Below are positions 11,978 through 55,336 of a stretch of DNA of 64,000 nt, one piece after another. A model generated the notes under the pieces. It was not told where the DNA came from, searched no databases, and worked only from the letters and a program-made list of their open reading frames with translations. Location: the sequence record NC_106514.1, one strand, 5' to 3'. How positions within the stretch are numbered: the stretch's first letter is position 1; each line of letters opens with the position of its first letter. This stretch comes from Escherichia phage vB_EcoS_ESCO40. A program made the translations under genes and the position numbers.

Positions 11978-12730
11978 TTATCCAACTAGTGGTTCTAGCT
12001 CTAAGTCACAGAAGTTATACACTTCTAGTTTAAGGTTATTGATACCATCGAATTTATTAACTAATTCGTGAGTGATATATTTTGCAGGAATACCACTTTC
12101 AGATGGATGATCTGATTTAATAGTGAACTTCTGCTCAGCGGGCACTACATTTATTAGTAAAGAATCCATATCTAAATGGTTCGTTTCTCTGAGTAACTCT
12201 CCTTCATTAGGGAATCTCACATCTGTTATTACGGCGACATCTGGGTCGTCTTTAGCGATGGATTGCTCCAGAATTATGAGCCAAATGCGTTCATGTACCA
12301 GCTGCCTTCCTAGCTCTGTTCCTACGAGCTGTAACATTTTTCTCGGAGAAATAAATAAACTATAAAGTCCGTCTTCTTTATTCTCTGAGATAAGTTGTTG
12401 AGGATTAAGATATTTTTCCTCAAAAATCGGCCAAACGTACGAGAAGTCTTCAAACTTATCGATACCATATTTAAACCATACGTCTCTAGCCCGCTCCAAT
12501 TGAGATTGTGTGACCGTAAACCATTGGTCAATCTCTTTTCCCCTGCGCTCTCCTAGAAACTCTGGAGTTACACCGAGGATTACGGATGCAAGTTCATAAA
12601 CGGGCTTAGCAAAACTATAACGACGGGCTAAATACGTTGGATACGTGTCATTACACCAATCGATAATTAATTTTGCAACGGTATCTTTTCCCGAACCAGC
12701 TTCACCATGTAAACCGACTAATACTGACAT
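11978..12730 (-). CDS. deoxynucleoside monophosphate kinase (P-loop)
   Basis: Walker A GEAGSGKDT at N-terminus. Confidence 0.65.
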   Translation of the reverse strand: MSVLVGLHGEAGSGKDTVAKLIIDWCNDTYPTYLARRYSFAKPVYELASVILGVTPEFLGERRGKEIDQWFTVTQSQLERARDVWFKYGIDKFEDFSYVWPIFEEKYLNPQQLISENKEDGLYSLFISPRKMLQLVGTELGRQLVHERIWLIILEQSIAKDDPDVAVITDVRFPNEGELLRETNHLDMDSLLINVVPAEQKFTIKSDHPSESGIPAKYITHELVNKFDGINNLKLEVYNFCDLELEPLVG

Positions 12731-13083
12731 TAATCTTTCCTATTGTTAATTGGTGGATAATATACTAAACAACGTTTTTCTTGTAAATCTTGGCGATAGA
12801 AGCAAACCATACCAGTCAGTCGTGAAATAAAGGAATATTCTGCCTCACGGCATTTTGCCAACATATTCCAGTCTTTATATGGTACAACAACTACTACGCC
12901 ATCTTCGCCATTTGTAGCTAATTTCTTTTCGAATTTGAAATCAAAGCTACAAGGCTGAAGTCCTTTAGGCCAATCCACATGGGCTTGCTTTAACTCATGT
13001 GACGGCTCTGGTACTACCGTTTCTGCACAGCCTGTGATTGTGATTGCGGCTGCGAGCAGTATTCCAAGCTTCCAGTTAAACAT
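12730..13083 (-). CDS. lipoprotein (possible outer-membrane spanin-like)
   Basis: Signal peptide with lipobox ITGC; start embedded in upstream gene. Confidence 0.5.
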   Translation of the reverse strand: MFNWKLGILLAAAITITGCAETVVPEPSHELKQAHVDWPKGLQPCSFDFKFEKKLATNGEDGVVVVVPYKDWNMLAKCREAEYSFISRLTGMVCFYRQDLQEKRCLVYYPPINNRKD

Positions 13084-25594: not shown

Positions 25595-25656
25595 ATATGT
25601 TATGGATGAGTGATCAAAGAGACACACATTTTCTATATACTAGGAGGTGTCAAAAA

Positions 25657-26637
25657 ATGACAGAAGAAGTAGCTAAGAATCCTGAGACCGTCGCTAGCGT
25701 AGCAGCAGAACTGCATCGTCACGAGGAATCAGATAAGAAAAAGTGGGAGAAAGTTAAAGCCTACGAAGAAGAACATCGTGAACACGATGATAAAGATGAA
25801 GAAGATGACGATGATGAACATTGTCATAAATATGGAAAACATAAAATGCAAGAACCAGTAAACGTATTTACTAACGGCTTCCCGGGCATGGGTGCATTCC
25901 CAGCTAACGCAAGTGCTTTCGGTGGAGAAGGTATGGGTCTATTCGGCGCTATCCTAATCGGTGCTCTATTAACAGGCGGATTTGGTGGTTTTGGTGGTTT
26001 TGGTCGCGGTGCTGGCGTTGCCGCTGAAGGGACTGCTGTGGACGCGATCCTTTCTAACCAAGATACTGCAAGTATTCTAGCTGCAATCAATACTACTCGT
26101 ACAGAAGCTAATCAGGGCACTGGGGCTGTTCTAAGCGCAGTAAACGGTGTGGGAGCTGCTCAAGCTGCTAGCACTCAGCAAGTTCTGACTACTATCTACG
26201 GTACAGGTGCTAATCTGTCAAACCAGATCTGTGCTGAAACTCGTAACGTTATTCAGGGTCAGTTCGATCTTTCTCGTCAGATGGATCAATCTTTCGCTGC
26301 TAACCAGATAGCACGTGCTCAAGATAAGTTTGACTCTGCTCAGATTGCTTTCCAGCAATCTATTCAGACTAATAACCAGTTCGCCGCTGTTCAGGCTCAG
26401 ATGTGTGCTAACCAGAACGCTATCGAACGTCAGCTTGCTGAATGTTGCTGTGAGCTTCAGACTGCAATCGCTGGTGTAACTACTGCACGTATCCAGGACG
26501 AACTGAATGAATGCCGTCTGCGCGAAGCAATCGCTGCAGGTAGTGGTGCAAATGGTCAGGTAATCAACCAAATCGCTGTAAGTCTTGGTGCTATCACTCA
26601 GACTCTGGCTGGTCTGCAGGCTAAACTGCCGGCTTAA
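25657..26637 (+). CDS. low-complexity protein: acidic/His-rich N-terminus, glycine-zipper hydrophobic segment, Ala/Gln/Asn-rich C-terminus
   Basis: RBS AGGAGGTG before ATG at 25657 (track start 25597 unsupported); segment LFGAILIGALLTGGFGGFGGFG; codons biased to cgt/ctg/ggt. Confidence 0.65.
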   Translation: MTEEVAKNPETVASVAAELHRHEESDKKKWEKVKAYEEEHREHDDKDEEDDDDEHCHKYGKHKMQEPVNVFTNGFPGMGAFPANASAFGGEGMGLFGAILIGALLTGGFGGFGGFGRGAGVAAEGTAVDAILSNQDTASILAAINTTRTEANQGTGAVLSAVNGVGAAQAASTQQVLTTIYGTGANLSNQICAETRNVIQGQFDLSRQMDQSFAANQIARAQDKFDSAQIAFQQSIQTNNQFAAVQAQMCANQNAIERQLAECCCELQTAIAGVTTARIQDELNECRLREAIAAGSGANGQVINQIAVSLGAITQTLAGLQAKLPA

Positions 26638-26658
26638 ACTTAAGGGGAGGAGCCCATT

Positions 26659-27075
26659 ATGAGTAAATATGGTTTTGTAAACAACGGATTTAATCAACAA
26701 ATGGGCTCCCAGCAGCCCGTTCCGGGACTGGATAACCCTTACCTACAACAGTTGCAACAGCGTTTAGCAGAAGCGCAACAGATGCAGCAACAACTCCAGC
26801 AAAACCCTGGAAGTGTGAGTCCTATGCAAATGATGCAGCAAATGAGCGGGCAGTCACAAATGCCTCAACAAATGCAGCAACAGGTGCCTCAGCAGCAAGT
26901 TCAGCAACAAACCCAACAACCGCAGGTTTCTGTGGAAGGACAGGCAGTACTAGCCCTTTTCGAAGATTTCGCAAAGACAGAGGATGGGAAACAGCTTGTA
27001 TCACTTATGGGTAAGTTTAATAGCTTCTGCCAAAGCCAAGTTGCAAAAGCTCAAAATGGTGGTAATAACTCCTAA
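26659..27075 (+). CDS. Gln-rich protein (138 aa)
   Basis: RBS AAGGGGAGGAG; poly-Q tracts (QQMQQQLQQ, QQMQQQVPQQQVQQQTQQPQ). Confidence 0.6.
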   Translation: MSKYGFVNNGFNQQMGSQQPVPGLDNPYLQQLQQRLAEAQQMQQQLQQNPGSVSPMQMMQQMSGQSQMPQQMQQQVPQQQVQQQTQQPQVSVEGQAVLALFEDFAKTEDGKQLVSLMGKFNSFCQSQVAKAQNGGNNS

Positions 27076-27084
27076 GGAGGAATT

Positions 27085-27279
27085 ATGTGTTGCAGAAAAT
27101 CTGTTTCGTGCTGCCCAATGCCTGTAGCATGTTGTTGCTCTCCAGCAATGTTTACACAAATACCGGCGTTCAATCCCTTTGCCTTTAAGCCTATTCTTAT
27201 CCTGCCCCCTAGAGTAGATTTTCAGTCAAGATTGGCCTCCCGTATGGGTGGTTGCTGTAACAAGAGTATATGGTTCTAA
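27085..27279 (+). CDS. Cys-rich small protein (64 aa)
   Basis: RBS AAGGAGG; N-terminus MCCRKSVSCCPMPVACCC, C-terminal GGCC. Confidence 0.5.
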   Translation: MCCRKSVSCCPMPVACCCSPAMFTQIPAFNPFAFKPILILPPRVDFQSRLASRMGGCCNKSIWF

Positions 27280-27295
27280 AGAACCAATAATAAAA

Positions 27296-27329
27296 AGCCC
27301 CTAGTCGAAAGACTTAGGGCTTTTCTTTT
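27296..27329 (+). terminator. intrinsic terminator of the island
   Basis: Hairpin with GAAA loop followed by TTTTCTTTT. Confidence 0.55.
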
Positions 27330-27339
27330 ATCTTAAATA

Positions 27340-27375
27340 CAGAAAAGCCCTGCGCTCTCCAGGGAACGCAGGGCT
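27340..27375 (-). terminator. intrinsic terminator (convergent)
   Basis: Perfect 9-bp stem agccctgcg / cgcagggct with U-run on minus strand after the SPFH gene. Confidence 0.6.
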
Positions 27376-27399
27376 TACTTCGAATATTACGTGTGGGTA

Positions 27400-28347
27400 T
27401 TACTTGTTACGCATATCCATAATCATCTGGCCATCGTAACCAGTGCCAACTACTGTTTGCGGTACACCACCTTGATACTTCTGAGCACGAATCATTTCAA
27501 CCTCTAGTTGCTTCCAGCGGATCATCTCAGGAGTAATAGTACGTTGCAGAGCGGCGTTAGCTTCAGCTTCTTTCTTAGCTGCATACAGTTTGGCATCTGC
27601 ATCACGTTCGTTTGCAATAGCTTGGTTGTTACGAGCTTCACGATCTGCTTCTGCTTGTTTAACCTTCTGCTGTGCTTCTTGTTCAACACGAGCCAATTCA
27701 GCTTTCGCAGCATTAACTTGTTCTTCACGAACTTTGGTATTCTGTACCTGTTCCATGATTACAGGCGGCAAAGTAATATCCTGAAGGAACACTTGCTTAA
27801 CTGTGTAACCATAAGGGCGTGCGTACTCTTCAACTTCCTGTTGAATTGCAGTTTGCAATTGTGCTTGAATTTTAGCATCAAACAAATCTTGTGCTTTAGG
27901 TACAGACTTACCGAACTCACGAATAGTGGATAACAGCTTCTCAGTTACATATTTATCTAACGCCTGATCCTGAGTACCTGCATTAATACGGTTGATCGGT
28001 GCCTTAGAACCATCAAACTGCAACATAACAGTCAGGTCAACAGTGGATTTAAACTTATCCTGGCTGGGAACCTGAAGTTTATCTAATTTTACAGCAATGT
28101 CTTTTGTACTAAAAGTATCGAAAGATGCAAATGGATTTACAAGATGGAAACCAGGTAATACTGGGTTAGGATCTACTTTACCCAGAAATGTTTGGGTTTT
28201 AACCGTACCATCAGAAACAATAGTATATGAATTAAAAGCTAGGATTAAACCTGCTAAACCAACTACAGCACCAATCCCCCAACGTTTAATAGTACGAATT
28301 ACTTTCTGCTCAGAAGTTAGTTCTTTCATATTTTTAGTATTAAACAT
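27400..28347 (-). CDS. SPFH/band-7 (HflC/prohibitin-like) membrane protein
   Basis: N-terminal TM then long charged coiled-coil with Ala/Glu/Gln repeats typical of SPFH proteins. Confidence 0.65.
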   Translation of the reverse strand: MFNTKNMKELTSEQKVIRTIKRWGIGAVVGLAGLILAFNSYTIVSDGTVKTQTFLGKVDPNPVLPGFHLVNPFASFDTFSTKDIAVKLDKLQVPSQDKFKSTVDLTVMLQFDGSKAPINRINAGTQDQALDKYVTEKLLSTIREFGKSVPKAQDLFDAKIQAQLQTAIQQEVEEYARPYGYTVKQVFLQDITLPPVIMEQVQNTKVREEQVNAAKAELARVEQEAQQKVKQAEADREARNNQAIANERDADAKLYAAKKEAEANAALQRTITPEMIRWKQLEVEMIRAQKYQGGVPQTVVGTGYDGQMIMDMRNK

Positions 28348-41594: not shown

Positions 41595-42266
41595 ATGGTA
41601 AGAAAGAAAATAACTACAGAAGATGTGAACTTAACACTTGCTCCCAGAGGAATAATTATGCTAAGCACGTATATATCAGCTAAATCCAATGCTATATTTA
41701 AGTGCTCTAATGGACATAGTTGGGAGGCTAGAGTAGATAATGTAAAAGGTGGGAGAGGTTGCCCTTATTGTGCTAGTCGTACTTTAGATCTTAAAGAGGT
41801 AAGTGAATCCTTAGCTGCTCGTGGAATAAAGATGGAAGGTAAATACATCAATTCTAAGAGTAAAATTATGTTCAGCTGTGAGAATAATCATAGGTGGGAG
41901 TCTACACTTGATAGTGTTAGAAACCATAGTTCTGGTTGTCCTATATGTTTATTAGAGAAGGATAATTATCCTACTAGCGTATATATTTTAATAAGTAATG
42001 TGGGAACCAAAATAGGAGTGTCTAGCAGAACTAAAGATAGACTCAGAGATATTAAAACTTCTTCTAACATACATGATTTAAAAATATTTAAGGAATATAG
42101 CTTTTCAGATAGATCAAAAGCTATGCGTATTGAAAGAGAGGCCCATTTACAGTTTAAGGAATATAATTGTCAGTACAAAGATTTTGATGGTGCTACAGAA
42201 TTTTTTAATATTGAGCCAGAAGTAGTAGCAAGGTTTATTGAGGAAATAATTAATGACAGAGAATGA
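41595..42266 (+). CDS. zinc-ribbon repeat protein with GIY-YIG-like C-terminal domain
   Basis: Two repeats of ...C.NGH.WE......CPYC/CPIC, then YILISNVG...RLRDIK; overlaps nrdD start. Confidence 0.55.
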   Translation: MVRKKITTEDVNLTLAPRGIIMLSTYISAKSNAIFKCSNGHSWEARVDNVKGGRGCPYCASRTLDLKEVSESLAARGIKMEGKYINSKSKIMFSCENNHRWESTLDSVRNHSSGCPICLLEKDNYPTSVYILISNVGTKIGVSSRTKDRLRDIKTSSNIHDLKIFKEYSFSDRSKAMRIEREAHLQFKEYNCQYKDFDGATEFFNIEPEVVARFIEEIINDRE

Positions 42267-44079
42267 ATTAATTGAGAATTGCAAAGGTCTGCTCACTCTA
42301 ACTGCGGATAAGGACTTACAGCATAATAATGCTAATAAGCCTAGTGAGATGTTCCATACTCAAAGAGACTTATTAGCTGGGGAAATTAACAAGTATTTAG
42401 TATCGCAAGAATTACCTAAACACCTGTTAGACGCACATAATCTAGGTAAAATACACATTCATGACATGGACTACAGAGCACAAGGGTACACCAACTGTTG
42501 CTTAGTAGATCTAGGCGGTATGCTGAAAAATGGCACTAAAATTGGTAACGCAAATATTGAAACCCCTAAATCCATAACTACTGCATGCGCGATTACTGCT
42601 CAGATTATTGCTCAAGTATCGGGTGCTCAGTATGGTGGCACCTCTATTGATCGTATCGATGAGGTTTTAGCCCCCTATGTCAGAAAGTCTTATGATAAAC
42701 ACCTGGGTCGTGGGCTACGTTGGCTCAAGGATGAAAGAAAAGCTGCTGTGTATGCTACTGAGCTTACTGAAAAAGAGTGTTATGATGCATTCCAAGCCCT
42801 AGAGTATGAAACTAATTCATTATTTAACTCTAATGGGCAGACCCCTTTTGTTACGCTTGGCTTTGGATTAGGTCAAGAGTGGGAGGAAAGGATGATTCAG
42901 AAAGCCATCCTCCAAAATCGTATTAAAGGTTTAGGTGCTGCTGAGTCAACCCCTATCTTCCCTAAACTAGTATTCTCAGTTAAAGAAGGGTTAAATAAAA
43001 ATCCAGGTGATCCTAACTATGATATAAAACAGCTAGCACTTGAGTGTTCTGCTACTCGTATGTATCCAGACTATTTAAGTTACGAGAGAGTTGTAGCTGT
43101 TACTGGTGATTTTAAAGCCCCTATGGGTTGTCGTAGTTTTTTATCTGCTATCCCCTCTGGAGAAATTGCAGGGCGTAATAATTTAGGTGTTGTGTCTATC
43201 AATCTACCTATGGTTGCTGCTGAGGCAGATGGAGTTTTTGAAGATTTCTGGGATATTCTAGACAAATATGTGGATGAGGCTTTTGAAGCGCATGACTTCT
43301 TCTTAAACAGACTGAAGAAAGTTAAGGCTAAACAAGCCCCTATTCTTTATATGCACGGTGGTTTTGGTGTACGTTTAGAAGGGGAAGAATATGTATGGCC
43401 TATTTTTGAGGGTAGATCCTCTGTATCTCTTGGGTATATTGGGGTCTATGAGATGTGCCAAATAATGTTTAGTTTACCACAGACTCATAGGGACTGTATT
43501 GAATTTACAGAGGAAGTTCTCACTCACTTAAAAAATCGTTGCGAAGTTAAAGCTAATGAGACTAATCTTGGGTTTAGCTTGTATGCTACTCCTAGTGAGT
43601 CTCTGTGTAATCGCTTTAATAAATTACTGGAGCGTAGATTCCCAGAGTATTCTTGGTTAACAGACAAAGGCTATCTTACTAATAGTCACCATTTGGACGT
43701 AAGAGAGAAGGTAGCCCCAGATACTAAATTTGAGTACGAAGCTCATTTTACCAAAATAGCTAATGGGGGTAATATATCGTTTGTGGAATTACCACAAATG
43801 AAAAAATTCCATAAAGCTCTTGAATACGTAGTAGATAAGGGACTAGAGTGTAGCCATTATATCGGTGTTAATATACCGATTGACGAGTGTTTCAACTGCG
43901 GATATATGGGTGAATCTATTGCCTCTGAGCGTGGGTTTGTATGTCCAAGTTGTGGGTCTGAAGAAATAGAGGTTACACGTAGGGTTTGCGGGTACCTGGG
44001 ATCCCCGGGCAGTAGGCCTTTCAATTCTGGGAAACAAAAAGAAGTGCTTGGTAGAGTAAAACACTTAAATCTTAAGTAA
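42253..44079 (+). CDS. nrdD: anaerobic ribonucleoside-triphosphate reductase (class III)
   Basis: C-terminal zinc-ribbon CFNCGY...CPSCGS and glycyl-radical motif RVCGYLG. Confidence 0.85.
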   Translation: MTENELIENCKGLLTLTADKDLQHNNANKPSEMFHTQRDLLAGEINKYLVSQELPKHLLDAHNLGKIHIHDMDYRAQGYTNCCLVDLGGMLKNGTKIGNANIETPKSITTACAITAQIIAQVSGAQYGGTSIDRIDEVLAPYVRKSYDKHLGRGLRWLKDERKAAVYATELTEKECYDAFQALEYETNSLFNSNGQTPFVTLGFGLGQEWEERMIQKAILQNRIKGLGAAESTPIFPKLVFSVKEGLNKNPGDPNYDIKQLALECSATRMYPDYLSYERVVAVTGDFKAPMGCRSFLSAIPSGEIAGRNNLGVVSINLPMVAAEADGVFEDFWDILDKYVDEAFEAHDFFLNRLKKVKAKQAPILYMHGGFGVRLEGEEYVWPIFEGRSSVSLGYIGVYEMCQIMFSLPQTHRDCIEFTEEVLTHLKNRCEVKANETNLGFSLYATPSESLCNRFNKLLERRFPEYSWLTDKGYLTNSHHLDVREKVAPDTKFEYEAHFTKIANGGNISFVELPQMKKFHKALEYVVDKGLECSHYIGVNIPIDECFNCGYMGESIASERGFVCPSCGSEEIEVTRRVCGYLGSPGSRPFNSGKQKEVLGRVKHLNLK

Positions 44080-44087
44080 GCTAATCA

Positions 44088-44120
44088 GCCAGGTTGCTAG
44101 TCGACCTGGCTTTTATTTTA
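44088..44120 (+). terminator. intrinsic terminator
   Basis: gccaggt / acctggc stem plus T-run. Confidence 0.6.
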
Positions 44121-44121
44121 T

Positions 44122-44150
44122 TTGCTTTCAGCCAAAAATTTATATATAAT
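44122..44150 (+). promoter_or_regulatory. sigma70-type early promoter (T5 family)
   Basis: TTGCTT-17-TATAAT with conserved leader. Confidence 0.6.
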
Positions 44151-44178
44151 AGATTTATAAATTTGAGAGGAGAAGACT

Positions 44179-44460
44179 ATGAGCGAATTGCTTCCTAAAG
44201 TAGATGTTTCTCATCTTGGAGAGCCTAGTGAAGAACGTAAGGCTCTTGATTGGCTAGGTTACTTTGATTATCGTCGTGTTGTTGCAACATGGAATGATAA
44301 GAAAGTTAAGAAGTTTCGGGTACATTATGTAGGTAAAGACAAGTGGCTCTGGATTGATTATGAGGAATCGAAGGGGTCTACTAAGGCTGTGAAAATTTAT
44401 TGTATGTATGGGTATTATTATGCTCACTGTGATAAGAATGAATTTACAGTACAGAACTAA
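44179..44460 (+). CDS. hypothetical protein (93 aa)
   Basis: ORF behind conserved leader RBS. Confidence 0.5.
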   Translation: MSELLPKVDVSHLGEPSEERKALDWLGYFDYRRVVATWNDKKVKKFRVHYVGKDKWLWIDYEESKGSTKAVKIYCMYGYYYAHCDKNEFTVQN

Positions 44461-44469
44461 GGAACAAGA

Positions 44470-44700
44470 ATGAAAGACGTAAAACATCTTAAATATCGCT
44501 TAATCTATAATGGACGTATGGAAACTGAGGAGCTAGCTCAATTAGCTACTAACTCTAATGAGGTTATGGTGCGTGCGCTAGCAATTGAAAAGTTGCGTGC
44601 TTCTTATGAAAGTCGTATTATGCGACTGGAGGAAACCCTTTATGGACTTCTTGAATCAGAGGCTAAAAGTAACCCAGAGGATGGGCCTTCTAAGCAATAG
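44470..44700 (+). CDS. hypothetical protein (76 aa)
   Basis: ORF. Confidence 0.5.
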   Translation: MKDVKHLKYRLIYNGRMETEELAQLATNSNEVMVRALAIEKLRASYESRIMRLEETLYGLLESEAKSNPEDGPSKQ

Positions 44701-44752
44701 AGGGTAACTTTACCCAAAATATTATCAAAGGACTCAAGAGAGGAATCATATA

Positions 44753-45589
44753 ATGCGTAGATTAATTATTATTAGTGGTGCAGGTTTGAGTGTTGAAAGT
44801 GGTGTACGAGCCTTCCGTACTGATACTGCTAGTGGTAAAGCATTGTGGGATGATTATGATCTAGAAGAGGTGTGTAATATTCATGCCTTTCGTGGTAATT
44901 TTTACCATAAAACTCACGCATTTTACAATAAACGTCGTGAAGAGTTAGAAACTGTTGAACCTAATCTTGCACACTTGCGTATTGGTGAATGGTATAAACA
45001 ATACCCAGGTCAGGTAGTAAACTTGACTACCAACGTTGATGACCTTATTGAGCGTGCTGGTGTTCCGCATAGTGACATTCTGCACATTCACGGATACTTA
45101 AAAGAGGTTGTTGTAGCTGATAGCTACAATAGTAGCAATAAACGAATTATTGATGTTGGGTATAGCTCTATTGACCCAGATGATTATAAGTGGGTTAAAC
45201 CTAATGTAATCTTCTTCGGAGAACATGCTCCAGCATACGCGGAGATGTACAATGTTTTTGATGGTATTACCAGTCAAGATATGATTGTGGTGGTTGGTTG
45301 CTCTAACCAAGTAATTAACTTCTACTGGGAATTATTCCCTGTTCTTAATCGGACTGCTGCGAAACTTATGGTAGTTAACTACTACGATAGTGCCTTAGCG
45401 GCGGAACCAGGCTATCAAGGTATGACTCGTAGTGATATGTACCAACTGGAAGATCGTGATATTCCTTACTGGAGTAAAGGTGCGGTAGATGCTTTCAGTG
45501 ACCCTGGTTTTATCGCTCGTGTAGAAGCTCATCTAGAGGGTAGACCTTATATGCCGGAGAGAAGGGGAAACAGATATGTCCATAGTTAA
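44753..45589 (+). CDS. Sir2-like NAD-binding protein (no zinc ribbon)
   Basis: GAGLSVESGVRAFR and TTNVDDL...LHIHGY motifs; no CxxC zinc module seen. Confidence 0.65.
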   Translation: MRRLIIISGAGLSVESGVRAFRTDTASGKALWDDYDLEEVCNIHAFRGNFYHKTHAFYNKRREELETVEPNLAHLRIGEWYKQYPGQVVNLTTNVDDLIERAGVPHSDILHIHGYLKEVVVADSYNSSNKRIIDVGYSSIDPDDYKWVKPNVIFFGEHAPAYAEMYNVFDGITSQDMIVVVGCSNQVINFYWELFPVLNRTAAKLMVVNYYDSALAAEPGYQGMTRSDMYQLEDRDIPYWSKGAVDAFSDPGFIARVEAHLEGRPYMPERRGNRYVHS

Positions 45590-45758
45590 ATCTGTATATA
45601 CACATCCCGATGATATATTTGTATGGGCGGATGGTAGTTGGTGTTATCGTTGTGAGCTATGGGAAATGGACTATAAATCTGATGACTATGGTGTCATATA
45701 TGTTGATACGGTTGAGTATGATACGTTCTTAGCAAGGGACAAAAATGGAAATAAGTAA
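45576..45758 (+). CDS. hypothetical protein (60 aa)
   Basis: ORF, coupled. Confidence 0.4.
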   Translation: MSIVKSVYTHPDDIFVWADGSWCYRCELWEMDYKSDDYGVIYVDTVEYDTFLARDKNGNK

Positions 45759-46251
45759 TACTCCAATTATTTTTCTAGATATTGATGGGGTGCTCAACTC
45801 GAGCATCTCTCATCACCATGCACCTGATGATGAAAAGATTTTCTTTGGAAGTGACTGGGTTTTTAAACCGCTTCTCAAGGCTTTTCAGGACTTTATTCGT
45901 CCTTCTCCAATAATGATTGTTGGGGTATCTTCATGGTTCTCTGTCAGGAATGAGATGGAGAACGTTCAGATTATGACCGGATTAGATCTTATCGATCGTT
46001 TTCTTGGTACAACGGATTTTACTGGTGGTGGGCTATCTAGGGGTAATTCTGTTCTTCGCTTCGTTGAAAAGTATAAGCTCAAACATTGGTGTGTGCTGGA
46101 TGACGCTGGTGCTATGATGTATCAGTATCCAACGGTTATAGTCAATGGTAGAACTGGAATAAATCTTCAAGATTTAAGAGCTGTTAGCTATATGTTAGAA
46201 TTTAGTCCAGATCTTGAAATGTGTAAAGCCCTACAACAATTTAAGGTGTAA
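45745..46251 (+). CDS. HAD-like phosphatase candidate
   Basis: N-terminal IIFLDIDGVLN (DxDG) and later VLDDAG. Confidence 0.5.
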   Translation: MEISNTPIIFLDIDGVLNSSISHHHAPDDEKIFFGSDWVFKPLLKAFQDFIRPSPIMIVGVSSWFSVRNEMENVQIMTGLDLIDRFLGTTDFTGGGLSRGNSVLRFVEKYKLKHWCVLDDAGAMMYQYPTVIVNGRTGINLQDLRAVSYMLEFSPDLEMCKALQQFKV

Positions 46252-46253
46252 AT

Positions 46254-46682
46254 ATGTTTAATAATGTATTCTCTAAAGAAGCTAACCCAATATTGGTTAA
46301 TTTTTGGCGTACTCTTCCAGACAACCTGTACAATGAGGCTATTAATGCCCTGAAAATATGGTGTGAGAATAATGAAATCTCCTTTGCTTTTAGAGGTGAG
46401 GTTGAAGAATCTCCCTGTATTGGTTTAATTGTGCAGGTAGAGGATGGTTTTGAAGAGATTGTCGGCTGGAAAGAGTTAGATGAAATGGGCTTGGTTTTTG
46501 CATTAAACTATAAGCTGTTTATGCCTAATAAACACCGTATTGTTGTTAACTATAAAACCAATGAATCTCCTGGTTTTCAAGTTAATGAACATTACGGTTG
46601 GTCTTACTCACCGGAAGAGGTAAATGATGGTATCCAGAAACTTCGTCGTTTTGGTTATCAGATTCCTGGTTTAACTGCCTAA
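46254..46682 (+). CDS. hypothetical protein, paralog A (142 aa)
   Basis: Shares conserved core with 46692-47084 (...ELDEMGLVFALNYKLFMP vs ...ELSAMGLIVALNFSLFHP). Confidence 0.5.
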   Translation: MFNNVFSKEANPILVNFWRTLPDNLYNEAINALKIWCENNEISFAFRGEVEESPCIGLIVQVEDGFEEIVGWKELDEMGLVFALNYKLFMPNKHRIVVNYKTNESPGFQVNEHYGWSYSPEEVNDGIQKLRRFGYQIPGLTA

Positions 46683-46691
46683 GGGGACACA

Positions 46692-47084
46692 ATGGAACAA
46701 GTATATTGGCGTCAGATTGATCCTAGTTTGGTGAAGCGTGCGGAGAAGCTGCTACAACGTTGGTTGGGGGTAAGACAAGCCTCCTTCACTTTTCCAGAGC
46801 AGCAAATAGATGATCCCTGTGTTGGTGTTTTCCTATCAGGCTACGCTAGGGAATGGGAATTGGATTGGAATGAATTGTCTGCTATGGGTTTAATTGTTGC
46901 ACTAAATTTCTCTTTGTTCCATCCACGTGGTTTGGCCATATGTCGTGTGCCTGGTGACGGTTGTTCGCCCCATCTTTTACAGGTGGAAGATGATATTTGG
47001 GAGTACACTCCAGGTATTCTCAAAGAAGCTAAAGAACAATTAAATCGTGTTGGAATCTATGTTCCGGGACTAAATGATGAATAA
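46692..47084 (+). CDS. hypothetical protein, paralog B (130 aa)
   Basis: Tandem paralog of the previous gene. Confidence 0.5.
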   Translation: MEQVYWRQIDPSLVKRAEKLLQRWLGVRQASFTFPEQQIDDPCVGVFLSGYAREWELDWNELSAMGLIVALNFSLFHPRGLAICRVPGDGCSPHLLQVEDDIWEYTPGILKEAKEQLNRVGIYVPGLNDE

Positions 47085-47268
47085 AGAATATTGGGTATGT
47101 TATGGTAAAATTAAAAAGTGGAATAAGGGTCAACTTTCCGCTAAACAAGTAAAATTTATGGCGAGATATTTGACTGATCCCACTTTCGATATTAAAAAGT
47201 TAAGTAGCTCAAACCGCGCTATTATACTTAAATTTGCTAATACTATTCGTGGTCTTTTTTATGATTAA
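47074..47268 (+). CDS. hypothetical protein (64 aa)
   Basis: ORF. Confidence 0.4.
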   Translation: MMNKEYWVCYGKIKKWNKGQLSAKQVKFMARYLTDPTFDIKKLSSSNRAIILKFANTIRGLFYD

Positions 47269-47275
47269 TCCGTAT

Positions 47276-47304
47276 AACCGAGTCATTTTGGCTCGGTTTT
47301 CTCT
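47276..47304 (+). terminator. intrinsic terminator
   Basis: aaccgag / ctcggtt stem plus T-run. Confidence 0.6.
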
Positions 47305-47344
47305 GTACTCAAAGACACTGATAGCACCATCCGGAAAATTTTAC

Positions 47345-47373
47345 TTGCATGATACTCAAAATCTTGATATAAT
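47345..47373 (+). promoter_or_regulatory. sigma70-type promoter
   Basis: TTGCAT-17-TATAAT. Confidence 0.55.
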
Positions 47374-47389
47374 ATTTATATTGAATTGA

Positions 47390-47873
47390 GAGACATTAGT
47401 AAAAATTGGTTTTACTAATTTTTCTTGTTTACAATCCGCGATACGGAACAGTTAGGCTGCCCCATTAAGGGTTGTTTTAACTGTTACGTGTTAGTTTTTA
47501 AACAAATAGTTAATAGAATACTTAGCGATCTGCGTCCCATAGGAACCCTGGTAAGGCCTCGAAGCAACCTAGTATGAGGTGGTTGTGAAGTGAGATGGGA
47601 GGAGTGAAAAACTACCGAGACGTGATTCTGTAAGTTATATTGCATCTAGTATGAGCTAGTATATGAAGCATTAGGTGAGCAAATCTGGCTTAGCGGCCAT
47701 CCTCAAGGATTTGTGCGGTATAATGAGGCAGCAGCGCAGCGTGAAAGTGGAAGTTGCCACCCCACTTCAGTATTTGCGATTAATTTGTTGAGAAATTGAC
47801 AGTAACAGTTGTTCTATTCTTTCTGAATAGTCCTAAAGAAAACTTATTTCATTTCCAACACAGGAGTATTGTT
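47390..47873 (+). other. long ORF-free leader with AACAGTT/AACTGTT palindromes
   Basis: About 480 nt between promoter and the first plausible start (GTG 47874); contains a possible 12-codon upstream ORF (atgggaggagtgaaaaac...). Confidence 0.35.
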
Positions 47874-53189: not shown

Positions 53190-53390
53190 ATGGCAATGAC
53201 AGTAACACTTCCCAAGATTCAAGCAAAACTTAATCTACTTTCCACAGCACGTATTAATTATCAAGATAGCATAGGCACAGTAAATCAAAAAGCGTACAAA
53301 GATGCGTTTCTGAAAGAATCTGCTGATTTGATGGATATGGTTACACAATATAATAAAGAACTCAAGATGGAAATCGCCGATGATGAATAA
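53190..53390 (+). CDS. hypothetical protein (about 66 aa)
   Basis: Track start 53175 is the ATG inside the conserved leader; RBS GAGAGGA precedes ATG at 53190. Confidence 0.45.
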   Translation: MAMTVTLPKIQAKLNLLSTARINYQDSIGTVNQKAYKDAFLKESADLMDMVTQYNKELKMEIADDE

Positions 53391-54354
53391 TGTAAAAGGC
53401 TTTATTAGGCGTTGTCAAGAAGCATATTATCAAGGCATGTCTTTAATCTCTGATGAGGAGTATGATTGCCTGGTAAAACGCTTCCCGTTAGAAGAAGAGA
53501 TCGGGCCTAAAGGTGATATTCCACATCTGTATCGTATGTATTCTTTACAGAAAGTTTATTATAATCGTGGAGATAAACCCCCATTTAACCCCTTAGGTCA
53601 GGTAGAAACTGATAAGTTAGATGGTTGTGCAATTTCTCTGTTATATATTAACGGCGAATTTGTCCAAGCATTAACCCGTGGTAATGGTATTCTAGGGAAT
53701 GATGTCACAAGCAACGTAAGATTGCTGAACATTCCTAAAAAGATTTCCCAAAAAGTACCTACTCAAATCACTGGTGAAGTTCTAATTACAAAAGAAGTAG
53801 AAAATAAACGTAACTTTGCCTCTGGTGCTATTAACCTCAAAGATAGTGATGATTTCGTACAACGCATTGGAGAAGGCGGTTTAATCTTTGTTGCTTACGG
53901 TATCCAATGTTCTGCTGAATCTGTAGGTATTACAGAAGCATACTTAAAAGATATGCTTTGGCTAGAGAATGAGAACTTCTTAACAGTTGTTAATGTGCGT
54001 TCCTTCTTTAAATGGATTCCGACGGACGGTAAAGTTGTTCGTATTAATGACAACAACAAATTCTTCCGTGAAGGCTGGACTAATAAATTCCCTCGTGGAG
54101 CATTCGCTATTAAAGAGGATGAAGAAGGCGAAATTACAACTCTTACTAAAGTTGAATGGCAGGTAGGGGCTTCTGGTAAAGTAACTCCAGTTGGTTATTT
54201 CGAACCGGTAATTATTGATGATGCTACAATTGTTAAGGCGACTCTTAATAACGTTGATTATATTAACTCTCTCGATCTAGAGATCGGTTGCCAGATTCGA
54301 GTGATTCGTGCTGGTGGTGTAATCCCGTGCATAGTAGAGCGAGTATACGATTAA
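53380..54354 (+). CDS. ligA: NAD-dependent DNA ligase, N-terminal part (adenylation domain)
   Basis: KxDG adenylation motif (ETDKLDGCA). Confidence 0.7.
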   Translation: MMNNVKGFIRRCQEAYYQGMSLISDEEYDCLVKRFPLEEEIGPKGDIPHLYRMYSLQKVYYNRGDKPPFNPLGQVETDKLDGCAISLLYINGEFVQALTRGNGILGNDVTSNVRLLNIPKKISQKVPTQITGEVLITKEVENKRNFASGAINLKDSDDFVQRIGEGGLIFVAYGIQCSAESVGITEAYLKDMLWLENENFLTVVNVRSFFKWIPTDGKVVRINDNNKFFREGWTNKFPRGAFAIKEDEEGEITTLTKVEWQVGASGKVTPVGYFEPVIIDDATIVKATLNNVDYINSLDLEIGCQIRVIRAGGVIPCIVERVYD

Positions 54355-54497
54355 TACATAACCCTTTGCTACCCATCTACCATATCGGAATTATAAAGTG
54401 GTTATTGACATTTTCGCCGCTTAGGTATATACTATTATCATTCAGTTGAGGGATAGAAAGTTATGGCGAGGGTAAGCAAAGTTAGTTAAAATTGTAG

Positions 54498-54526
54498 TTG
54501 CTAAATGCTTAAATACTTGCTATAAT
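54498..54526 (+). promoter_or_regulatory. sigma70-type promoter between the two ligase ORFs
   Basis: TTGCTA-17-TATAAT with TG at extended -10. Confidence 0.55.
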
Positions 54527-54556
54527 ATTTATATAAATTGATAAGGAAGAAATTTG

Positions 54557-55336
54557 ATGAAAATCGAAATTCCAACACAATGTCCCTCTTGTGGTTCTAA
54601 GCTAGATCTTGTCAACGGACAATTATTCTGTCGTAATAAGTCCAACTGTCCAGCGCAATCAAGTAAGTTAATTGAGAACTTCTGTACAAAAATGAAGTTA
54701 AAGGGCTTTGGCCCGAAAACTATTGAGAAGCTGGAGCTGACGAAGATTTCAGAACTATTTTACCTAACCGAAGAAGATTTGGTTAGAGCCGTGGGTAGCA
54801 AGGTTGCCGCTAAGTTAATTAGCGAATTAAATACTAAAGTTCGCGGAGACATTGACTTTGGTTCAGTTCTCGGTTCTTTAGGAATCCCTCTAATTGGAGA
54901 GGTTGCAGCAAAGAAATTGTCCCAAAATTGCACCAGTTTTCAAGATGTGAGAGCTGATGGCAAAGCTGGAGAAAATTATAAAGCCTGGCTAAATTCCCCA
55001 CAAGGCAAGGATGTTATCGAATTACCGTGGAAATTCACAACTGGTATTAAAGGTGCTAAAGCTGGGGTCATCATTACTGATGGTCTAGTAGCCCAGCCAA
55101 ATGGAATCACGGTGTGTATTACCGGGTCTTTGCAAGATTTTGCAAATAGAACGGATGCAACAAATTATTTAGAAGGTCTAGGGTATACTGTTAAAAAATC
55201 AGTTACCAAAGACGTTAAATACCTAATCTGTGAGGATGAATCGAAGCGTTCTTCCTCATCTTATAAGAAAGCCGAAACGAATGGGATAGAAATCCTGTCG
55301 ATTAAAGAACTATTGGAGAAAAATAATAATGTCTAA
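54557..55336 (+). CDS. ligA: NAD-dependent DNA ligase, C-terminal part (Zn finger, HhH, BRCT-like)
   Basis: CPSCGSKLDLVNGQLFCRNKSNCPAQ zinc finger; RBS AAGGAAG before ATG at 54557. Confidence 0.65.
   Translation: MKIEIPTQCPSCGSKLDLVNGQLFCRNKSNCPAQSSKLIENFCTKMKLKGFGPKTIEKLELTKISELFYLTEEDLVRAVGSKVAAKLISELNTKVRGDIDFGSVLGSLGIPLIGEVAAKKLSQNCTSFQDVRADGKAGENYKAWLNSPQGKDVIELPWKFTTGIKGAKAGVIITDGLVAQPNGITVCITGSLQDFANRTDATNYLEGLGYTVKKSVTKDVKYLICEDESKRSSSSYKKAETNGIEILSIKELLEKNNNV

What the first reader, a model, noticed from the sequence alone, without database searches (positions are those of the whole stretch)
44179..47268. Sir2-like and HAD-like gene cluster with paralogous pair downstream of nrdD
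One operon carries a Sir2-like protein with the NAD-binding and catalytic-His motifs but no zinc ribbon, a HAD-like phosphatase candidate, a tandem pair of paralogs and four small ORFs. Zinc-less SIR2 domains also occur as NADases in bacterial defence systems as far as I know; a phage copy with a phosphatase could act on NAD, ADP-ribose or protein acylation during takeover.
Basis: partly seen in the sequence, partly recalled or inferred. Interest (0 to 1): 0.55.

Follow-up and report, generated by a model that had tools for sequence, protein, structure and literature searches.

The report
T5 phage sirtuin–phosphatase early operon
This is the known, conserved early operon of T5-like phages (genes T5.100–T5.107) that pairs a zinc-less but catalytically intact sirtuin with a small HAD phosphatase; the pairing was already described and predicted to repair cut RNA, but no experiment has tested what it does.

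Summary
Window 44179–47268 holds eight tightly packed + strand ORFs, between two intrinsic terminators and behind a T5 P-N25-like early promoter. They are a 278-aa sirtuin (Pfam SIR2, E=2.7e-24), a 168-aa capless HAD phosphatase (Pfam HAD_SAK_2, E=3.4e-19), two tandem DUF7415 paralogs (31% identity, E=1e-18) and four small conserved ORFs, just downstream of nrdD.

The window is a T5-like phage and the cluster is the orthologue of T5.100–T5.107. None of it is new. Sir2 is annotated in the T5 RefSeq record. The zinc-less state of phage Sir2/CobB was noted in 2016. The sirtuin–HAD neighbourhood, typified by the Tequintavirus SP15, was described in 2022 and predicted to be NAD-dependent RNA repair.

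The sirtuin resembles E. coli CobB and SIRT5 (class III), not the defence NADases. It keeps every NAD-site and catalytic residue.

Orthologues at 58–63% identity sit inside RNA-ligase/kinase/cREC/phosphoesterase clusters in V5-like and related ~145-kb phages. T5-like genomes themselves encode no RNA ligase or kinase.

Best guess, at about 0.4: NAD-consuming processing of phosphorylated RNA ends. A CobB-like deacylase role is the main rival.

Novelty: already known. Interest about 0.35, because the function remains untested.

The parts
42253..44079 (+). nrdD, the anaerobic ribonucleotide reductase. It is upstream context and not part of the operon.
   Evidence: Pfam NRDD E=1.8e-157 plus Gly_radical. 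It is 98-100% identical to nrdD of several T5-like loci.
44087..44111 (+). Intrinsic terminator of nrdD, marking the upstream boundary of the cluster.
   Evidence: 10-bp stem with 6 GC pairs followed by a T run. Annotated as a terminator at the same place in T5 and Bf23.
44122..44150 (+). Sigma-70 early promoter: -35 TTGCTT, 17-nt spacer, -10 TATAAT. It has the conserved T5 early-promoter downstream box.
   Evidence: Read from the sequence. An alignment with annotated T5 promoters shows a near-identical core to P-N25.
44179..44460 (+). Small ORF 1 (93 aa), function unknown. Present in only some T5-like phages.
   Evidence: phrog_7953 E=2.6e-64. No Pfam hit. Presence and absence across loci.
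44470..44700 (+). Small ORF 2 (76 aa), function unknown.
   Evidence: phrog_5236 E=9.4e-43. 82-95% identical in the T5/Epseptimavirus-type loci.
44753..45589 (+). Zinc-less class-III-like sirtuin, the orthologue of T5.102.
   Evidence: Pfam SIR2 E=2.7e-24. AF2 model pLDDT 88. Foldseek best match CobB 1s5p, E=2e-17. Invariant NAD and catalytic residues, and no Cys4.
45576..45758 (+). Small ORF 4 (60 aa) with the motif W-x-DG-S-WCYR. It overlaps both the Sir2 stop and the HAD start.
   Evidence: phrog_5116 E=3.4e-29. Relatives lie immediately downstream of Sir2 in T5-like, Sugarlandvirus and four other loci.
45745..46251 (+). Capless HAD phosphatase of the HAD_SAK_2 family, the orthologue of T5.105.
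   Evidence: Pfam PF18143 E=3.4e-19. Motifs I-IV invariant. No relative with a solved structure by sequence.
46254..46682 (+). DUF7415 paralog A (142 aa), the orthologue of T5.106.
   Evidence: Pfam DUF7415 E=3.1e-31. An HMM of single-domain relatives hits residues 67-125 strongly and 20-43 weakly.
46692..47084 (+). DUF7415 paralog B (130 aa), the orthologue of T5.107.
47074..47268 (+). Small ORF 8 (64 aa, basic, pI 10), function unknown. Present in only a few relatives.
   Evidence: phrog_29527 E=7e-38. pI. Distribution.
47276..47298 (+). Intrinsic terminator closing the operon.
   Evidence: 10-bp stem followed by a T run. A terminator is annotated at the equivalent place in T5 and Bf23.

Best explanation
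What it is (shown): the early transcription unit T5.100-T5.107 of a T5-like phage (Tequintavirus). A strong P-N25-type promoter drives it and terminators bracket it.

Its core is a catalytically intact sirtuin derived from class III (CobB/SIRT5-like) enzymes. The zinc ribbon has become a cysteine-free beta-ribbon. The sirtuin is translationally coupled, through a 60-aa ORF that overlaps both genes, to a capless HAD phosphatase of the RNA-repair-associated HAD_SAK_2 family. Two DUF7415 paralogs of unknown role follow.

How it most likely works (inferred): early in infection the sirtuin uses NAD+ as an ADP-ribosyl donor on an anionic group of a macromolecule. The most likely target is a 2'-phosphate at a broken or re-joined RNA, a reaction analogous to that of Tpt1/KptA. 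It would release nicotinamide and an ADP-ribose phosphate.

The HAD phosphatase would remove terminal 2'/3' (cyclic) phosphates from RNA ends, or dephosphorylate the ADP-ribose phosphate by-product.

T5-like genomes encode no RNA ligase or 5'-kinase. Sealing would therefore have to come from a host ligase such as RtcB.

The biological purpose would be to rescue host or phage tRNAs cut by anticodon-nuclease defences. This window alone encodes 18 tRNAs.
For: Identity with T5:
- The DNA is 92-96% identical to T5-like phages.
- Gene order is the same as T5.100-T5.107.

The sirtuin looks active:
- G9 A10 G11 S13 S16 G17 F21 R22, T92 T93 N94 V95 D96, H113 G114, K149 P150 V152 F154 F155 E157, G182 S184 and N209 are invariant across 33 relatives at 54-95% identity.
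- The AF2 model is confident.
- The fold matches CobB and SIRT5.

Anion recognition: the class III Tyr-x-x-Arg pair (Y58, R61) is invariant. It aligns with the CobB segment 'FYNARR'.

The HAD looks active and suited to large substrates:
- Membership of HAD_SAK_2 is secure, at 70 bits against a cut-off of 27.5.
- All four motifs are invariant.
- At 168 aa there is no room for a cap module. By established knowledge of the HAD superfamily, capless members typically take macromolecular substrates.

Sir2-HAD coupling:
- Both genes are kept, in shuffled order, in divergent Demerecviridae loci: L068 is nrdD-HAD-x-Sir2 and L069 is nrdD-x-HAD-x-x-Sir2.

RNA-repair context of the orthologues:
- In V5-like and related ~145-kb phage contigs, sirtuins 58-63% identical lie in the conserved block Metallophos - RNA_lig_T4_1 - cREC_REC - AAA_33 kinase - Sir2.
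- Among 24 Sir2 identity groups, Rnl1 lies within 5 kb in 5, Metallophos in 7 and PNK in 4.

Published prediction: Iyer et al. 2022 (PMC9503650, section 3.7.3) made the same prediction for this neighbourhood type, which they typify by phage SP15. SP15 is a Tequintavirus.

tRNAs: 18 tRNA genes lie in the window.
Against: - No homologue of RNA ligase, polynucleotide kinase, cREC or the cluster-type Metallophos exists in the window. None exists in 8-107 kb of the close relative Bf23 either. T5-like phages therefore cannot heal and seal RNA on their own.
- Sugarlandvirus keeps Sir2 and the DUF7415 pair but has no HAD.
- Seven of the 24 Sir2 groups have no recognisable RNA-repair neighbour.
- The sirtuin keeps the complete acyl-lysine machinery, including the FGE loop and Tyr/Arg. 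That fits a protein deacylase equally well.
- The Sir2 family (pI 4.6-6.0), the HAD (pI 5.3) and DUF7415 (pI 4.4) are all acidic. That is unusual for RNA-binding enzymes, though this is weak evidence.
- In T4-like phages the HAD homologues sit in variable early regions, near td, dUTPase or Dda, with no consistent RNA-repair partner.
- The RNA-repair role of the V5-type cluster is itself only predicted.
- No experimental paper on any phage sirtuin of this clade was found.
Confidence: 0.4

Rival explanations
1. Protein-modification erasers. The sirtuin is a CobB-like NAD-dependent lysine deacylase, probably preferring acidic acyl groups such as succinyl or malonyl. It resets acylation of host or phage proteins during takeover. 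The capless HAD is a phosphoprotein phosphatase.
For: - The best sequence and fold matches are E. coli CobB, Sir2Af and SIRT5.
- The best NCBIfam hits are protein deacylase models.
- All canonical catalytic and acyl-lysine-tunnel residues are invariant, including FFGE and the class III Tyr58/Arg61 pair.
- A 2016 modelling study of the Vibrio phage homologue reached the same conclusion (PMC5107563).
- By general knowledge, capless HADs include protein phosphatases.
Against: - Scores fall far below the CobB equivalog cut-offs, at 91-102 against 243-320 bits.
- The zinc module that shapes the peptide cleft is remodelled across the whole family.
- The host already has CobB.
- No neighbouring gene points to protein modification. 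The conserved partners are RNA-end and nucleotide enzymes.
- The HAD belongs specifically to the RNA-repair-associated Pfam family.
Confidence: 0.25
2. NAD+/ADP-ribose small-molecule metabolism or counter-defence. The sirtuin and the HAD would process NAD-derived metabolites, such as ADP-ribose phosphates or immune signals. Or they form part of a phage NAD economy that works together with NAD+ reconstitution pathways.
For: - In L063 the sirtuin lies three small genes from a divergent Prs-like plus NAPRTase pair, which looks like NARP1 (Pfam for the Prs-like protein).
- In L066 the sirtuin is two genes from a NAMPT-like gene.
- In L067 the HAD_SAK_2 gene is two genes upstream of Prs-like plus NAPRTase.
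- A Prs-like gene lies within 5 kb of Sir2 in 3-4 identity groups.
- Some T5-like phages carry the NadR/PnuC NARP3 module (PMC13464706).
- The phage also depends on NAD+ for its split LigA/LigB DNA ligase at 53380-55336.
Against: - NAD-salvage neighbours occur in only a minority of lineages.
- No Prs-like or NAPRT-like gene lies in this window or in Bf23.
- Among the four large ORFs of the tRNA region that I scanned, none was NadR or PnuC.
- A sirtuin that hydrolyses NAD+ would work against a phage that needs NAD+.
- Capless HADs are poor candidates for small-molecule specificity.
Confidence: 0.15
3. Accessory module of DNA-precursor synthesis or replication. The position next to nrdD is functional. 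The HAD would act as a nucleotidase, and the DUF7415 proteins as adaptors or regulators of nucleotide or replication enzymes.
For: - nrdD lies within 5 kb of this sirtuin clade in 9 of 24 identity groups. One of them, L066, has the T4-type order endoVII-nrdD-nrdG.
- A DUF7415-like ORF sits between nrdD and nrdG in the Jiaodavirus KPN6.
- DUF7415 is fused to thymidylate kinase (P0212) and to dATP/dGTP pyrophosphohydrolase PF04447 (P0254, P0256).
- Single-domain DUF7415 genes are adjacent to the P2-type replication gene A in 39 of 80 viral loci.
- In Aeromonas phage AsFcp_2 the HAD homologue lies between td and nrdA.1.
Against: - A terminator and a separate promoter divide nrdD from the cluster.
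- Among the 80 single-domain DUF7415 loci, none has an nrdD neighbour and only 3 have nrdA.
- This idea gives the sirtuin no role.
- The HAD matches no nucleotidase family.
- The evidence concerns DUF7415 more than Sir2 or the HAD.
Confidence: 0.1
4. A defence-type SIR2 NADase that the phage uses to deplete NAD+, for example in superinfection exclusion or host shut-off.
For: Zinc-less SIR2 domains are NADase effectors in Thoeris, DSR and SIR2-HerA systems (general knowledge; PMC9503650). The operon is expressed early.
Against: - No PADLOC defence model matches at E<=0.05.
- Only the canonical PF02146 model matches, and SIR2_2 does not.
- The fold matches are deacylases, with no defence SIR2 among the top 50 listed PDB matches.
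- There is no fused or adjacent sensor domain.
- The phage needs NAD+ for its own DNA ligase.
Confidence: 0.03

Closest known systems
Bacteriophage T5 genes T5.100-T5.107 (T5.102 'Sir2', T5.105, T5.106, T5.107) and their orthologues in Bf23, S131 and other Tequintaviruses
   Same: Same genes in the same order, after nrdD and before the replication-origin-binding gene. Protein identity is 94-99%. A promoter and terminator are annotated at the same places.
   Different: Only the small ORFs differ. T5 has a 126-aa T5.100 where this window has the 93-aa ORF 1. T5 also has an extra WCYR-type small ORF (T5.103). The last 64-aa ORF is present in only a few relatives.
Type-3 phage sirtuin neighbourhood of Iyer, Burroughs, Anantharaman and Aravind 2022 (Viruses 14:1977, PMC9503650): sirtuin plus 'Swiss-army-knife-like' HAD phosphatase, typified by Escherichia phage SP15
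   Same: It is this neighbourhood. SP15 is a Tequintavirus, and the HAD here is a secure HAD_SAK_2 member. The prediction is RNA-end clean-up, with the sirtuin acting like KptA.
   Different: In the passages I read, the paper does not discuss several points:
- the DUF7415 pair;
- the overlapping 60-aa ORF;
- the lack of a ligase or kinase in T5-like genomes;
- the loss of the HAD in Sugarlandvirus.
The prediction is untested.
E. coli CobB and human SIRT5 (class III sirtuins, NAD-dependent lysine deacylases)
   Same: Same fold (Foldseek E=2e-17, TM-score 0.84 normalised on CobB). Same NAD-binding loop, the same Asn/Asp, catalytic His and FGE loop, and the Tyr-x-x-Arg pair.
   Different: - About 24% identity.
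- No Cys4 zinc site.
- TTNVD replaces TQNID, GCS replaces GTS and KP replaces RP.
- Scores are below the CobB equivalog cut-offs.
- The gene is phage-encoded and sits in a different context.
Sir2/CobB of Vibrio phages KVP40, phiSt2 and phiGrn1 (Skliros et al. 2016, PMC5107563)
   Same: Phage sirtuins of the same broad clade. tblastn gives about 40% identity over 75-86% of the query. They were reported to lack the zinc ligands while keeping the active site. That paper also notes the T5 homologue.
   Different: They are more distant, sit in a T4-like genome, and lie near NAD-salvage genes and nrdD/nrdG rather than next to a HAD. L066 shows this type of arrangement.
Tpt1/KptA RNA 2'-phosphotransferase
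   Same: The proposed chemistry. [quoted passage not shown]
   Different: The fold is unrelated: ART-type there, a Rossmann-type sirtuin here. This is a functional analogy only, and it is untested.
T4 Pnkp/Rnl1 tRNA repair and the V5-type phage cluster (Metallophos - Rnl1 - cREC - kinase - Sir2)
   Same: The orthologous sirtuin (58-63% identity) is embedded in the V5-type cluster. By general knowledge, the HAD here would correspond to the DxDxT phosphatase domain of T4 Pnkp.
   Different: The T5-like operon has no ligase, no kinase and no cREC.
Defence-associated SIR2 NADases (ThsA, DSR1/DSR2, SIR2-HerA, SIR2-APAZ)
   Same: They share the sirtuin superfamily, the use of NAD+ and the absence of a zinc ribbon.
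   Different: They belong to a different subfamily and give no PADLOC hit here. They are fused or coupled to sensor domains, are encoded by the host, and have a different function.

Membership tests
Sirtuin family (Pfam SIR2, PF02146) | Profile score above the curated threshold | tested here: met
   86.6 bits against a cut-off of 24, E=2.7e-24, covering profile positions 1-178 of 180.
Sirtuin family (Pfam SIR2, PF02146) | Rossmann NAD-binding loop GAGxSxxSGIPxFR, plus the catalytic Asn/Asp and His | tested here: met
   G9-R22, N94, D96 and H113 are present and invariant in 33 relatives. The fold was confirmed by an AF2 model with pLDDT 88 and Foldseek E=2e-17 to CobB.
Sirtuin family (Pfam SIR2, PF02146) | Cys4 zinc ribbon in the small domain | tested here: not met
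   There is no Cys between H113 and V152 in the window protein, and 0-2 Cys in every relative. The model keeps the three strands 114-122, 131-134 and 147-152.
Class III sirtuins (CobB/SIRT5 type) | Tyr-x-x-Arg pair that recognises acidic acyl groups | tested here: met
   Y58 and R61 are invariant and align with CobB 'FYNARR'. The role of this pair in CobB and SIRT5 comes from the literature as I recall it. A PDB title for a CobB Y92A specificity mutant is consistent with it.
CobB orthologue (NCBIfam NF040867 / PRK00481 models) | Score above the equivalog or subfamily cut-off | tested here: not met
   The best scores are 102 and 91 bits against cut-offs of 243 and 320.
Defence-associated SIR2 NADases (Thoeris ThsA, DSR, SIR2-HerA, pAgo-SIR2) | Match to defence SIR2 models, and a fused or adjacent sensor or partner (SLOG, HerA, pAgo, CTD) | tested here: not met
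   No PADLOC SIR2 model matched. The only hit was a type I restriction-enzyme model at E=0.051. No such partner is present in the operon.
HAD superfamily, HAD_SAK_2 family (PF18143) | Profile score above threshold and the four catalytic motifs (DxDx[TV]; S/T; K/R; DD) | tested here: met
   70 bits against a cut-off of 27.5, covering profile positions 1-138 of 139. D12, D14, S62/S63, R99, D119 and D120 are invariant or nearly invariant in 17 relatives.
HAD superfamily, HAD_SAK_2 family (PF18143) | Activity on terminal phosphates of RNA | not testable with these tools
   This is the family's predicted role only, from the Pfam description and PMC9503650. No relative with a solved structure was found.
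Phage heal-and-seal RNA repair system (T4 Pnkp/Rnl1 type, V5-type cluster) | RNA ligase encoded in the same genome | tested here: not met
   tblastn with six Rnl1 sequences from Sir2 neighbourhoods gave no hit in the window or in Bf23 positions 8-107 kb.
Phage heal-and-seal RNA repair system (T4 Pnkp/Rnl1 type, V5-type cluster) | Polynucleotide 5'-kinase and a cyclic-phosphate-opening enzyme (cREC, 2H or Metallophos) | tested here: not met
   The only hit was a weak P-loop match at E=0.001, at window 12545-12733, which is the position annotated as the dNMP kinase gene in Bf23. There were no cREC or cluster-type Metallophos hits.
Phage heal-and-seal RNA repair system (T4 Pnkp/Rnl1 type, V5-type cluster) | 3'-phosphatase candidate | tested here: inconclusive
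   The HAD_SAK_2 protein is a candidate by family membership only.
Tpt1/KptA RNA 2'-phosphotransferase | KptA/ART-type fold | tested here: not met
   The fold is a sirtuin. Any resemblance would lie in the chemistry only.
Phage NAD+ reconstitution pathways (NARP1/NARP2/NARP3) | Prs-like/Adps plus NAMPT-like genes, or NadR plus PnuC | tested here: not met
   No Prs-like or NAPRT-like hit in the window or in Bf23. NadR and PnuC were not searched for directly. The four large ORFs of the tRNA region that I scanned are not NadR or PnuC, and Bf23 annotates neither.
DUF7415 (PF24187) | Profile score above threshold | tested here: met
   108 and 107 bits against a cut-off of 27, with two matched stretches in each paralog. 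An independent HMM built from 61 single-domain relatives hits the C-terminal halves at 6e-10 and 3e-20.

The most novel reading that the evidence does not exclude
The zinc-less phage sirtuin clade would be the first sirtuin whose physiological acceptor is a nucleic-acid phosphate. It would be a Rossmann-fold analogue of Tpt1 that ADP-ribosylates RNA 2'-phosphates. In T5-like phages it would work with the HAD_SAK_2 phosphatase and a host ligase to undo tRNA cleavage by anticodon-nuclease defences. A second, independent possibility is that DUF7415 is an unrecognised adaptor domain of phage replication and dNTP-synthesis machinery.
Probability: 0.25. Interest if true: 0.75.

Novelty: already known. 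Interest (0 to 1): 0.35.

Why it matters
Finding this cluster adds nothing new. It is annotated in T5 and in hundreds of relatives, and the sirtuin-HAD link and a mechanism have been published as predictions.

It still matters as an open experimental target. T5 is a classic, tractable model phage. The operon sits behind one of the strongest known E. coli promoter types. The sirtuin clade is conserved at 50-60% identity across several unrelated groups of large enterobacterial phages.

If the sirtuin acts on RNA phosphates, that would extend sirtuin chemistry beyond proteins and reveal a new kind of counter-defence against tRNA-cleaving immunity. If it is simply a deacylase, it would be a case of a phage rewriting host protein acylation.

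The analysis here narrows the experiments in three ways:
- The enzyme is CobB/SIRT5-like, not defence-like.
- T5 lacks its own ligase and kinase, so host RtcB and KptA backgrounds are the informative ones.
- The HAD is dispensable in one genus.

Tried and rejected
- **Defence-type SIR2.** A PADLOC scan of all eight proteins gave nothing meaningful. Rejected.
- **Solved relatives of the HAD.** phmmer and a 17-sequence profile against PDB sequences gave only noise, at E>=0.37.
- **DUF7415 as a nucleotide-metabolism marker.** It was suggested by fusions and by the nrdD-nrdG position in KPN6. A wider sample weakened it: 39 of 80 loci lie next to the P2-type gene A, none next to nrdD and 3 next to nrdA. 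It stays a minor rival only.
- **HAD context in T4-like phages.** It is inconsistent, with td/nrdA.1 in one, dUTPase/primase in another and Dda/exoA in a third.
- **P-N25 itself.** I first thought the upstream promoter was P-N25. The T5 annotation places P-N25 before D2. The cluster's promoter is a close paralogue of it.
- **Non-coding RNA.** No Rfam family lies near the cluster. The 400-nt downstream gap folds no better than shuffles, z=-0.7.
- **NrdG activase.** I looked for one among the unknown ORFs and found none in the window or in Bf23.
- **Literature.** Searches for T5.102, T5.105, DUF7415, HAD_SAK_2 and PF18143 gave 0 papers. Searches for 'phage sirtuin' and similar terms gave no experimental study.
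- **Missing paper.** Burroughs and Aravind 2016 (NAR 44:8525), which defined the SAK HAD domain, is not held in the library. I could not check its evidence directly.

Full report
**Origin of the window.** The region 44100-47400 is 92-96% identical at the DNA level to Tequintaviruses such as Salmonella phage S131 and Escherichia phage Bf23; 529 phage records match. Annotated records of Bf23, S131 and T5 show the same gene order: phoH (divergent), nrdD, terminator, promoter, small ORFs, Sir2-like, small ORF(s), three ORFs listed as 'hypothetical' (T5.105 is mislabelled 'Sir2' in RefSeq), terminator, then the replication-origin-binding protein. In T5 these genes are T5.100-T5.107. The finding is therefore the T5-family orthologue of a long-annotated cluster.

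**Check of the observation.**
- All eight + strand ORFs lie at the stated coordinates, with gaps of -14 to +52 nt between them.
- ORF 44753-45589 is a sirtuin: Pfam SIR2 E=2.7e-24 and phrog_2162 E=1.7e-119.
- ORF 45745-46251 is a HAD phosphatase of the family 'HAD domain in Swiss Army Knife RNA repair proteins' (HAD_SAK_2), at E=3.4e-19 with full-length coverage.
- ORFs 46254-46682 and 46692-47084 both match DUF7415 (E about 1e-31) and are 31% identical (E=1e-18).
- Each of the four small ORFs matches a PHROG family of unknown function at E=3e-29 to 3e-64. They are conserved genes.
- The upstream gene is nrdD: NRDD E=1.8e-157 plus Gly_radical.
- Terminator-like hairpins at 44087-44111 and 47276-47298 bracket the cluster.
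- A TTGCTT-17-TATAAT promoter sits at 44122-44150. Its core and downstream box are almost identical to the annotated T5 early promoter P-N25.

The 'one operon' description is well supported, although transcription itself was not measured.

**The sirtuin: catalytic site.**
- An alignment of 33 relatives at 54-95% identity shows an invariant NAD-binding loop (G9 A10 G11 S13 S16 G17 F21 R22).
- The catalytic triad region is also invariant: T92 T93 N94 V95 D96, H113 G114.
- So are the substrate loop (K149 P150 V152 F154 F155 E157), G182 S184 and N209.
- The segment between H113 and V152 is a Cys4 zinc ribbon in CobB. Here it has 0-2 cysteines in every member. Loss of zinc is a property of the whole clade.
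- The AlphaFold model (pLDDT 88, pTM 0.87) keeps three strands there.

**The sirtuin: which kind it is.**
- The closest solved proteins by sequence (E=5e-18) and by fold (E=2e-17) are E. coli CobB, then archaeal Sir2Af and SIRT5. These are class III deacylases.
- The Tyr-x-x-Arg pair typical of that class (Y58, R61) is invariant and aligns with CobB 'FYNARR'.
- It is not a CobB orthologue. NCBIfam scores of 91-102 bits lie far below the cut-offs of 243-320.
- It is not a defence-type SIR2 either. No PADLOC model matches.

**The HAD and the DUF7415 pair.**
- The HAD has all four catalytic motifs invariant in 17 relatives: D12-I-D14-G-V, S62/S63, R99 and D119-D120.
- At 168 aa it has no cap module. 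By established knowledge of the superfamily, capless members usually act on macromolecules.
- It has no relative with a solved structure detectable by sequence.
- An exhaustive profile search found 160 representative clusters. Most match only the C-terminal module, profile positions 57-112.
- An HMM built from 61 single-domain relatives hits each T5-type paralog strongly in its C-terminal half and weakly at its N-terminus. Each paralog therefore looks like a full domain preceded by a degenerate repeat.
- Fusions exist with thymidylate kinase and with a dATP/dGTP pyrophosphohydrolase domain.
- A DUF7415-like ORF lies between nrdD and nrdG in a T4-like Klebsiella phage.
- In a sample of 80 viral loci, however, the commonest neighbour (39 loci) is the P2-type replication gene A.
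- DUF7415 is thus a widespread domain of phage early, replication and precursor modules. Its function is unknown.

**Gene neighbourhoods of the sirtuin clade.** I collected 63 loci and grouped them into 24 Sir2 groups at >=75% identity.
- Demerecviridae:
  - The usual order is nrdD - small ORFs - Sir2 - small ORF - HAD - DUF7415 - DUF7415.
  - Two divergent members keep both enzymes in another order: nrdD-HAD-x-Sir2 in L068 and nrdD-x-HAD-x-x-Sir2 in L069. That argues for a functional link between Sir2 and the HAD.
  - Sugarlandvirus keeps Sir2 and the DUF7415 pair but has no HAD.
- V5-like and related ~145-kb phage contigs:
  - Sirtuins 58-63% identical to this one lie in a conserved block: Metallophos, T4-type RNA ligase 1, cREC_REC, AAA_33 kinase, Sir2, ATP-dependent DNA ligase.
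  - This is the strongest contextual clue to function.
- Links to NAD salvage:
  - A few lineages place the sirtuin or the HAD next to Prs-like and NAPRTase/NAMPT-like genes (L063, L066, L067).
- No informative neighbours:
  - Seven groups, including the Justusliebigvirus type, have none.

**What is already published.**
- The T5 RefSeq record already annotates T5.102 as Sir2.
- Skliros et al. 2016 modelled the Vibrio phage Sir2/CobB. They reported that the zinc ligands are absent while the active site is kept, and they listed the T5 homologue (PMC5107563).
- Iyer et al. 2022 defined a distinct viral sirtuin clade with three neighbourhood types. [quoted passage not shown] They proposed that the sirtuin acts like KptA to remove 2'-phosphates during RNA repair (PMC9503650). 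SP15 is a Tequintavirus.
- I found no experimental study of any member.

**Most likely mechanism and its weaknesses.**
- I favour the RNA-end-processing model at about 0.4. In it the sirtuin transfers ADP-ribose from NAD+ to an RNA 2'-phosphate, and the HAD trims terminal phosphates or the ADP-ribose phosphate by-product.
- The main support is the RNA-repair context of highly similar orthologues, the HAD family membership and the Sir2-HAD co-retention.
- There are three main weaknesses:
  - T5-like phages have no RNA ligase, kinase or cREC of their own. tblastn found none in the window or in 99 kb of Bf23. A host ligase such as RtcB would be required, which is an inference.
  - The enzyme keeps everything a lysine deacylase needs.
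  - The proteins are acidic, with family pI of 4.6-6.0 for Sir2.
- The deacylase reading is the main rival (0.25). NAD/ADPR metabolite processing comes next (0.15), then an accessory role in precursor synthesis (0.10). A defence-like NADase is unlikely (0.03).

**Verdict.** The cluster is already known as an annotated and computationally interpreted unit, and I add no new kind of system. The points I did not see in the passages of the papers I read are these:
- the clade-wide invariance of the class III Tyr/Arg pair;
- the demonstrated absence of ligase and kinase in T5-like genomes;
- the loss of the HAD in Sugarlandvirus;
- the exchange of the Sir2 allele between Tequintavirus and Epseptimavirus backbones;
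- the WCYR-type small ORF that overlaps the end of Sir2 in several lineages;
- the broader distribution and fusions of DUF7415.

Interest is moderate to low (0.35). The question 'what does a phage sirtuin do?' is open and directly testable in a model phage, but the finding itself is ordinary.

Noticed in passing
window 25597-28347: GC content rises to 0.458 at 26-28 kb against about 0.38 elsewhere. The stretch lies inside the tRNA-gene region. It holds a + strand 346-aa ORF with no Pfam hit (25597-26637) and a - strand 315-aa SPFH/Band_7 ORF (27400-28347). Bf23 annotates no ORF of comparable size in its tRNA-gene region. It looks like an inserted island.
   Followed up: partly
window 42253-44079 and the whole window: NrdD is present, but no NrdG activase homologue was found in the window or in 99 kb of Bf23 by tblastn with a phage NrdG. 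T5-like phages apparently rely on the host activase.
   Followed up: partly
window 41595-42266: A 223-aa ORF overlaps the start of nrdD. It carries a treble-clef zinc finger (DUF4379) plus a T5orf172/MUG113 domain, the homing-endonuclease type. It is absent from T5 and Bf23 but present in L068.
   Followed up: partly
L044, L045, L049, L050 (Epseptimavirus-type loci) against window 44179-46251: The Sir2 gene in these loci is only 52% identical to the window's. The flanking ORF 1 and ORF 2 are 83-98% identical and the HAD is 90% identical. Just the sirtuin allele has been exchanged between lineages. nrdD also comes in two allele classes, about 60% and 98-100% identical.
   Followed up: partly
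window 45576-45758; L006, L040, L043, L068, L069 just after Sir2: A 55-76-aa ORF with the motif W-x-DG-[ST]-WCYR follows Sir2 directly in several unrelated phage groups, usually overlapping its stop codon. T5 itself has two such ORFs (T5.103 and T5.104). It may be a sirtuin partner.
   Followed up: partly
window 44104-44181: The promoter of the cluster shares nearly all core positions, and the downstream 'AGATT.ATAAATTTGAGAG' box, with the T5 promoter P-N25, which the T5 record annotates upstream of gene D2. By my recollection, P-N25 is the strong promoter used in expression vectors.
   Followed up: yes
window 47299-47795: About 500 nt of non-coding DNA lie between the operon terminator and the replication-origin-binding gene. 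There is no Rfam match and folding is no better than shuffles. The TTG start at 47796 of the 955-aa ORF is probably too far upstream, since relatives annotate about 929 aa.
   Followed up: partly
window 53380-55336: The NAD-dependent DNA ligase is split into two genes. One carries the adenylation and OB domains and the other carries HhH and BRCT, as in T5 ligA/ligB. The phage's own replication therefore depends on NAD+.
   Followed up: no
L047 5079-5564 and L055 (162-aa ORF between the kinase and Sir2): A conserved 161-aa protein with no Pfam hit sits directly upstream of Sir2 in two lineages of ~147-kb phage contigs. Another conserved 229-aa protein (c16, also no Pfam hit) always accompanies the V5-type cluster.
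   Followed up: no
RefSeq/PHROG annotation of T5.105 homologues (window 45745-46251): Many records label the HAD phosphatase gene 'Sir2 (NAD-dependent deacetylase)'. PHROG 18062 carries that name, but it matches the C-terminal half of the HAD protein (residues 77-168, E=1e-57). This is an annotation error that has been propagated.
   Followed up: yes
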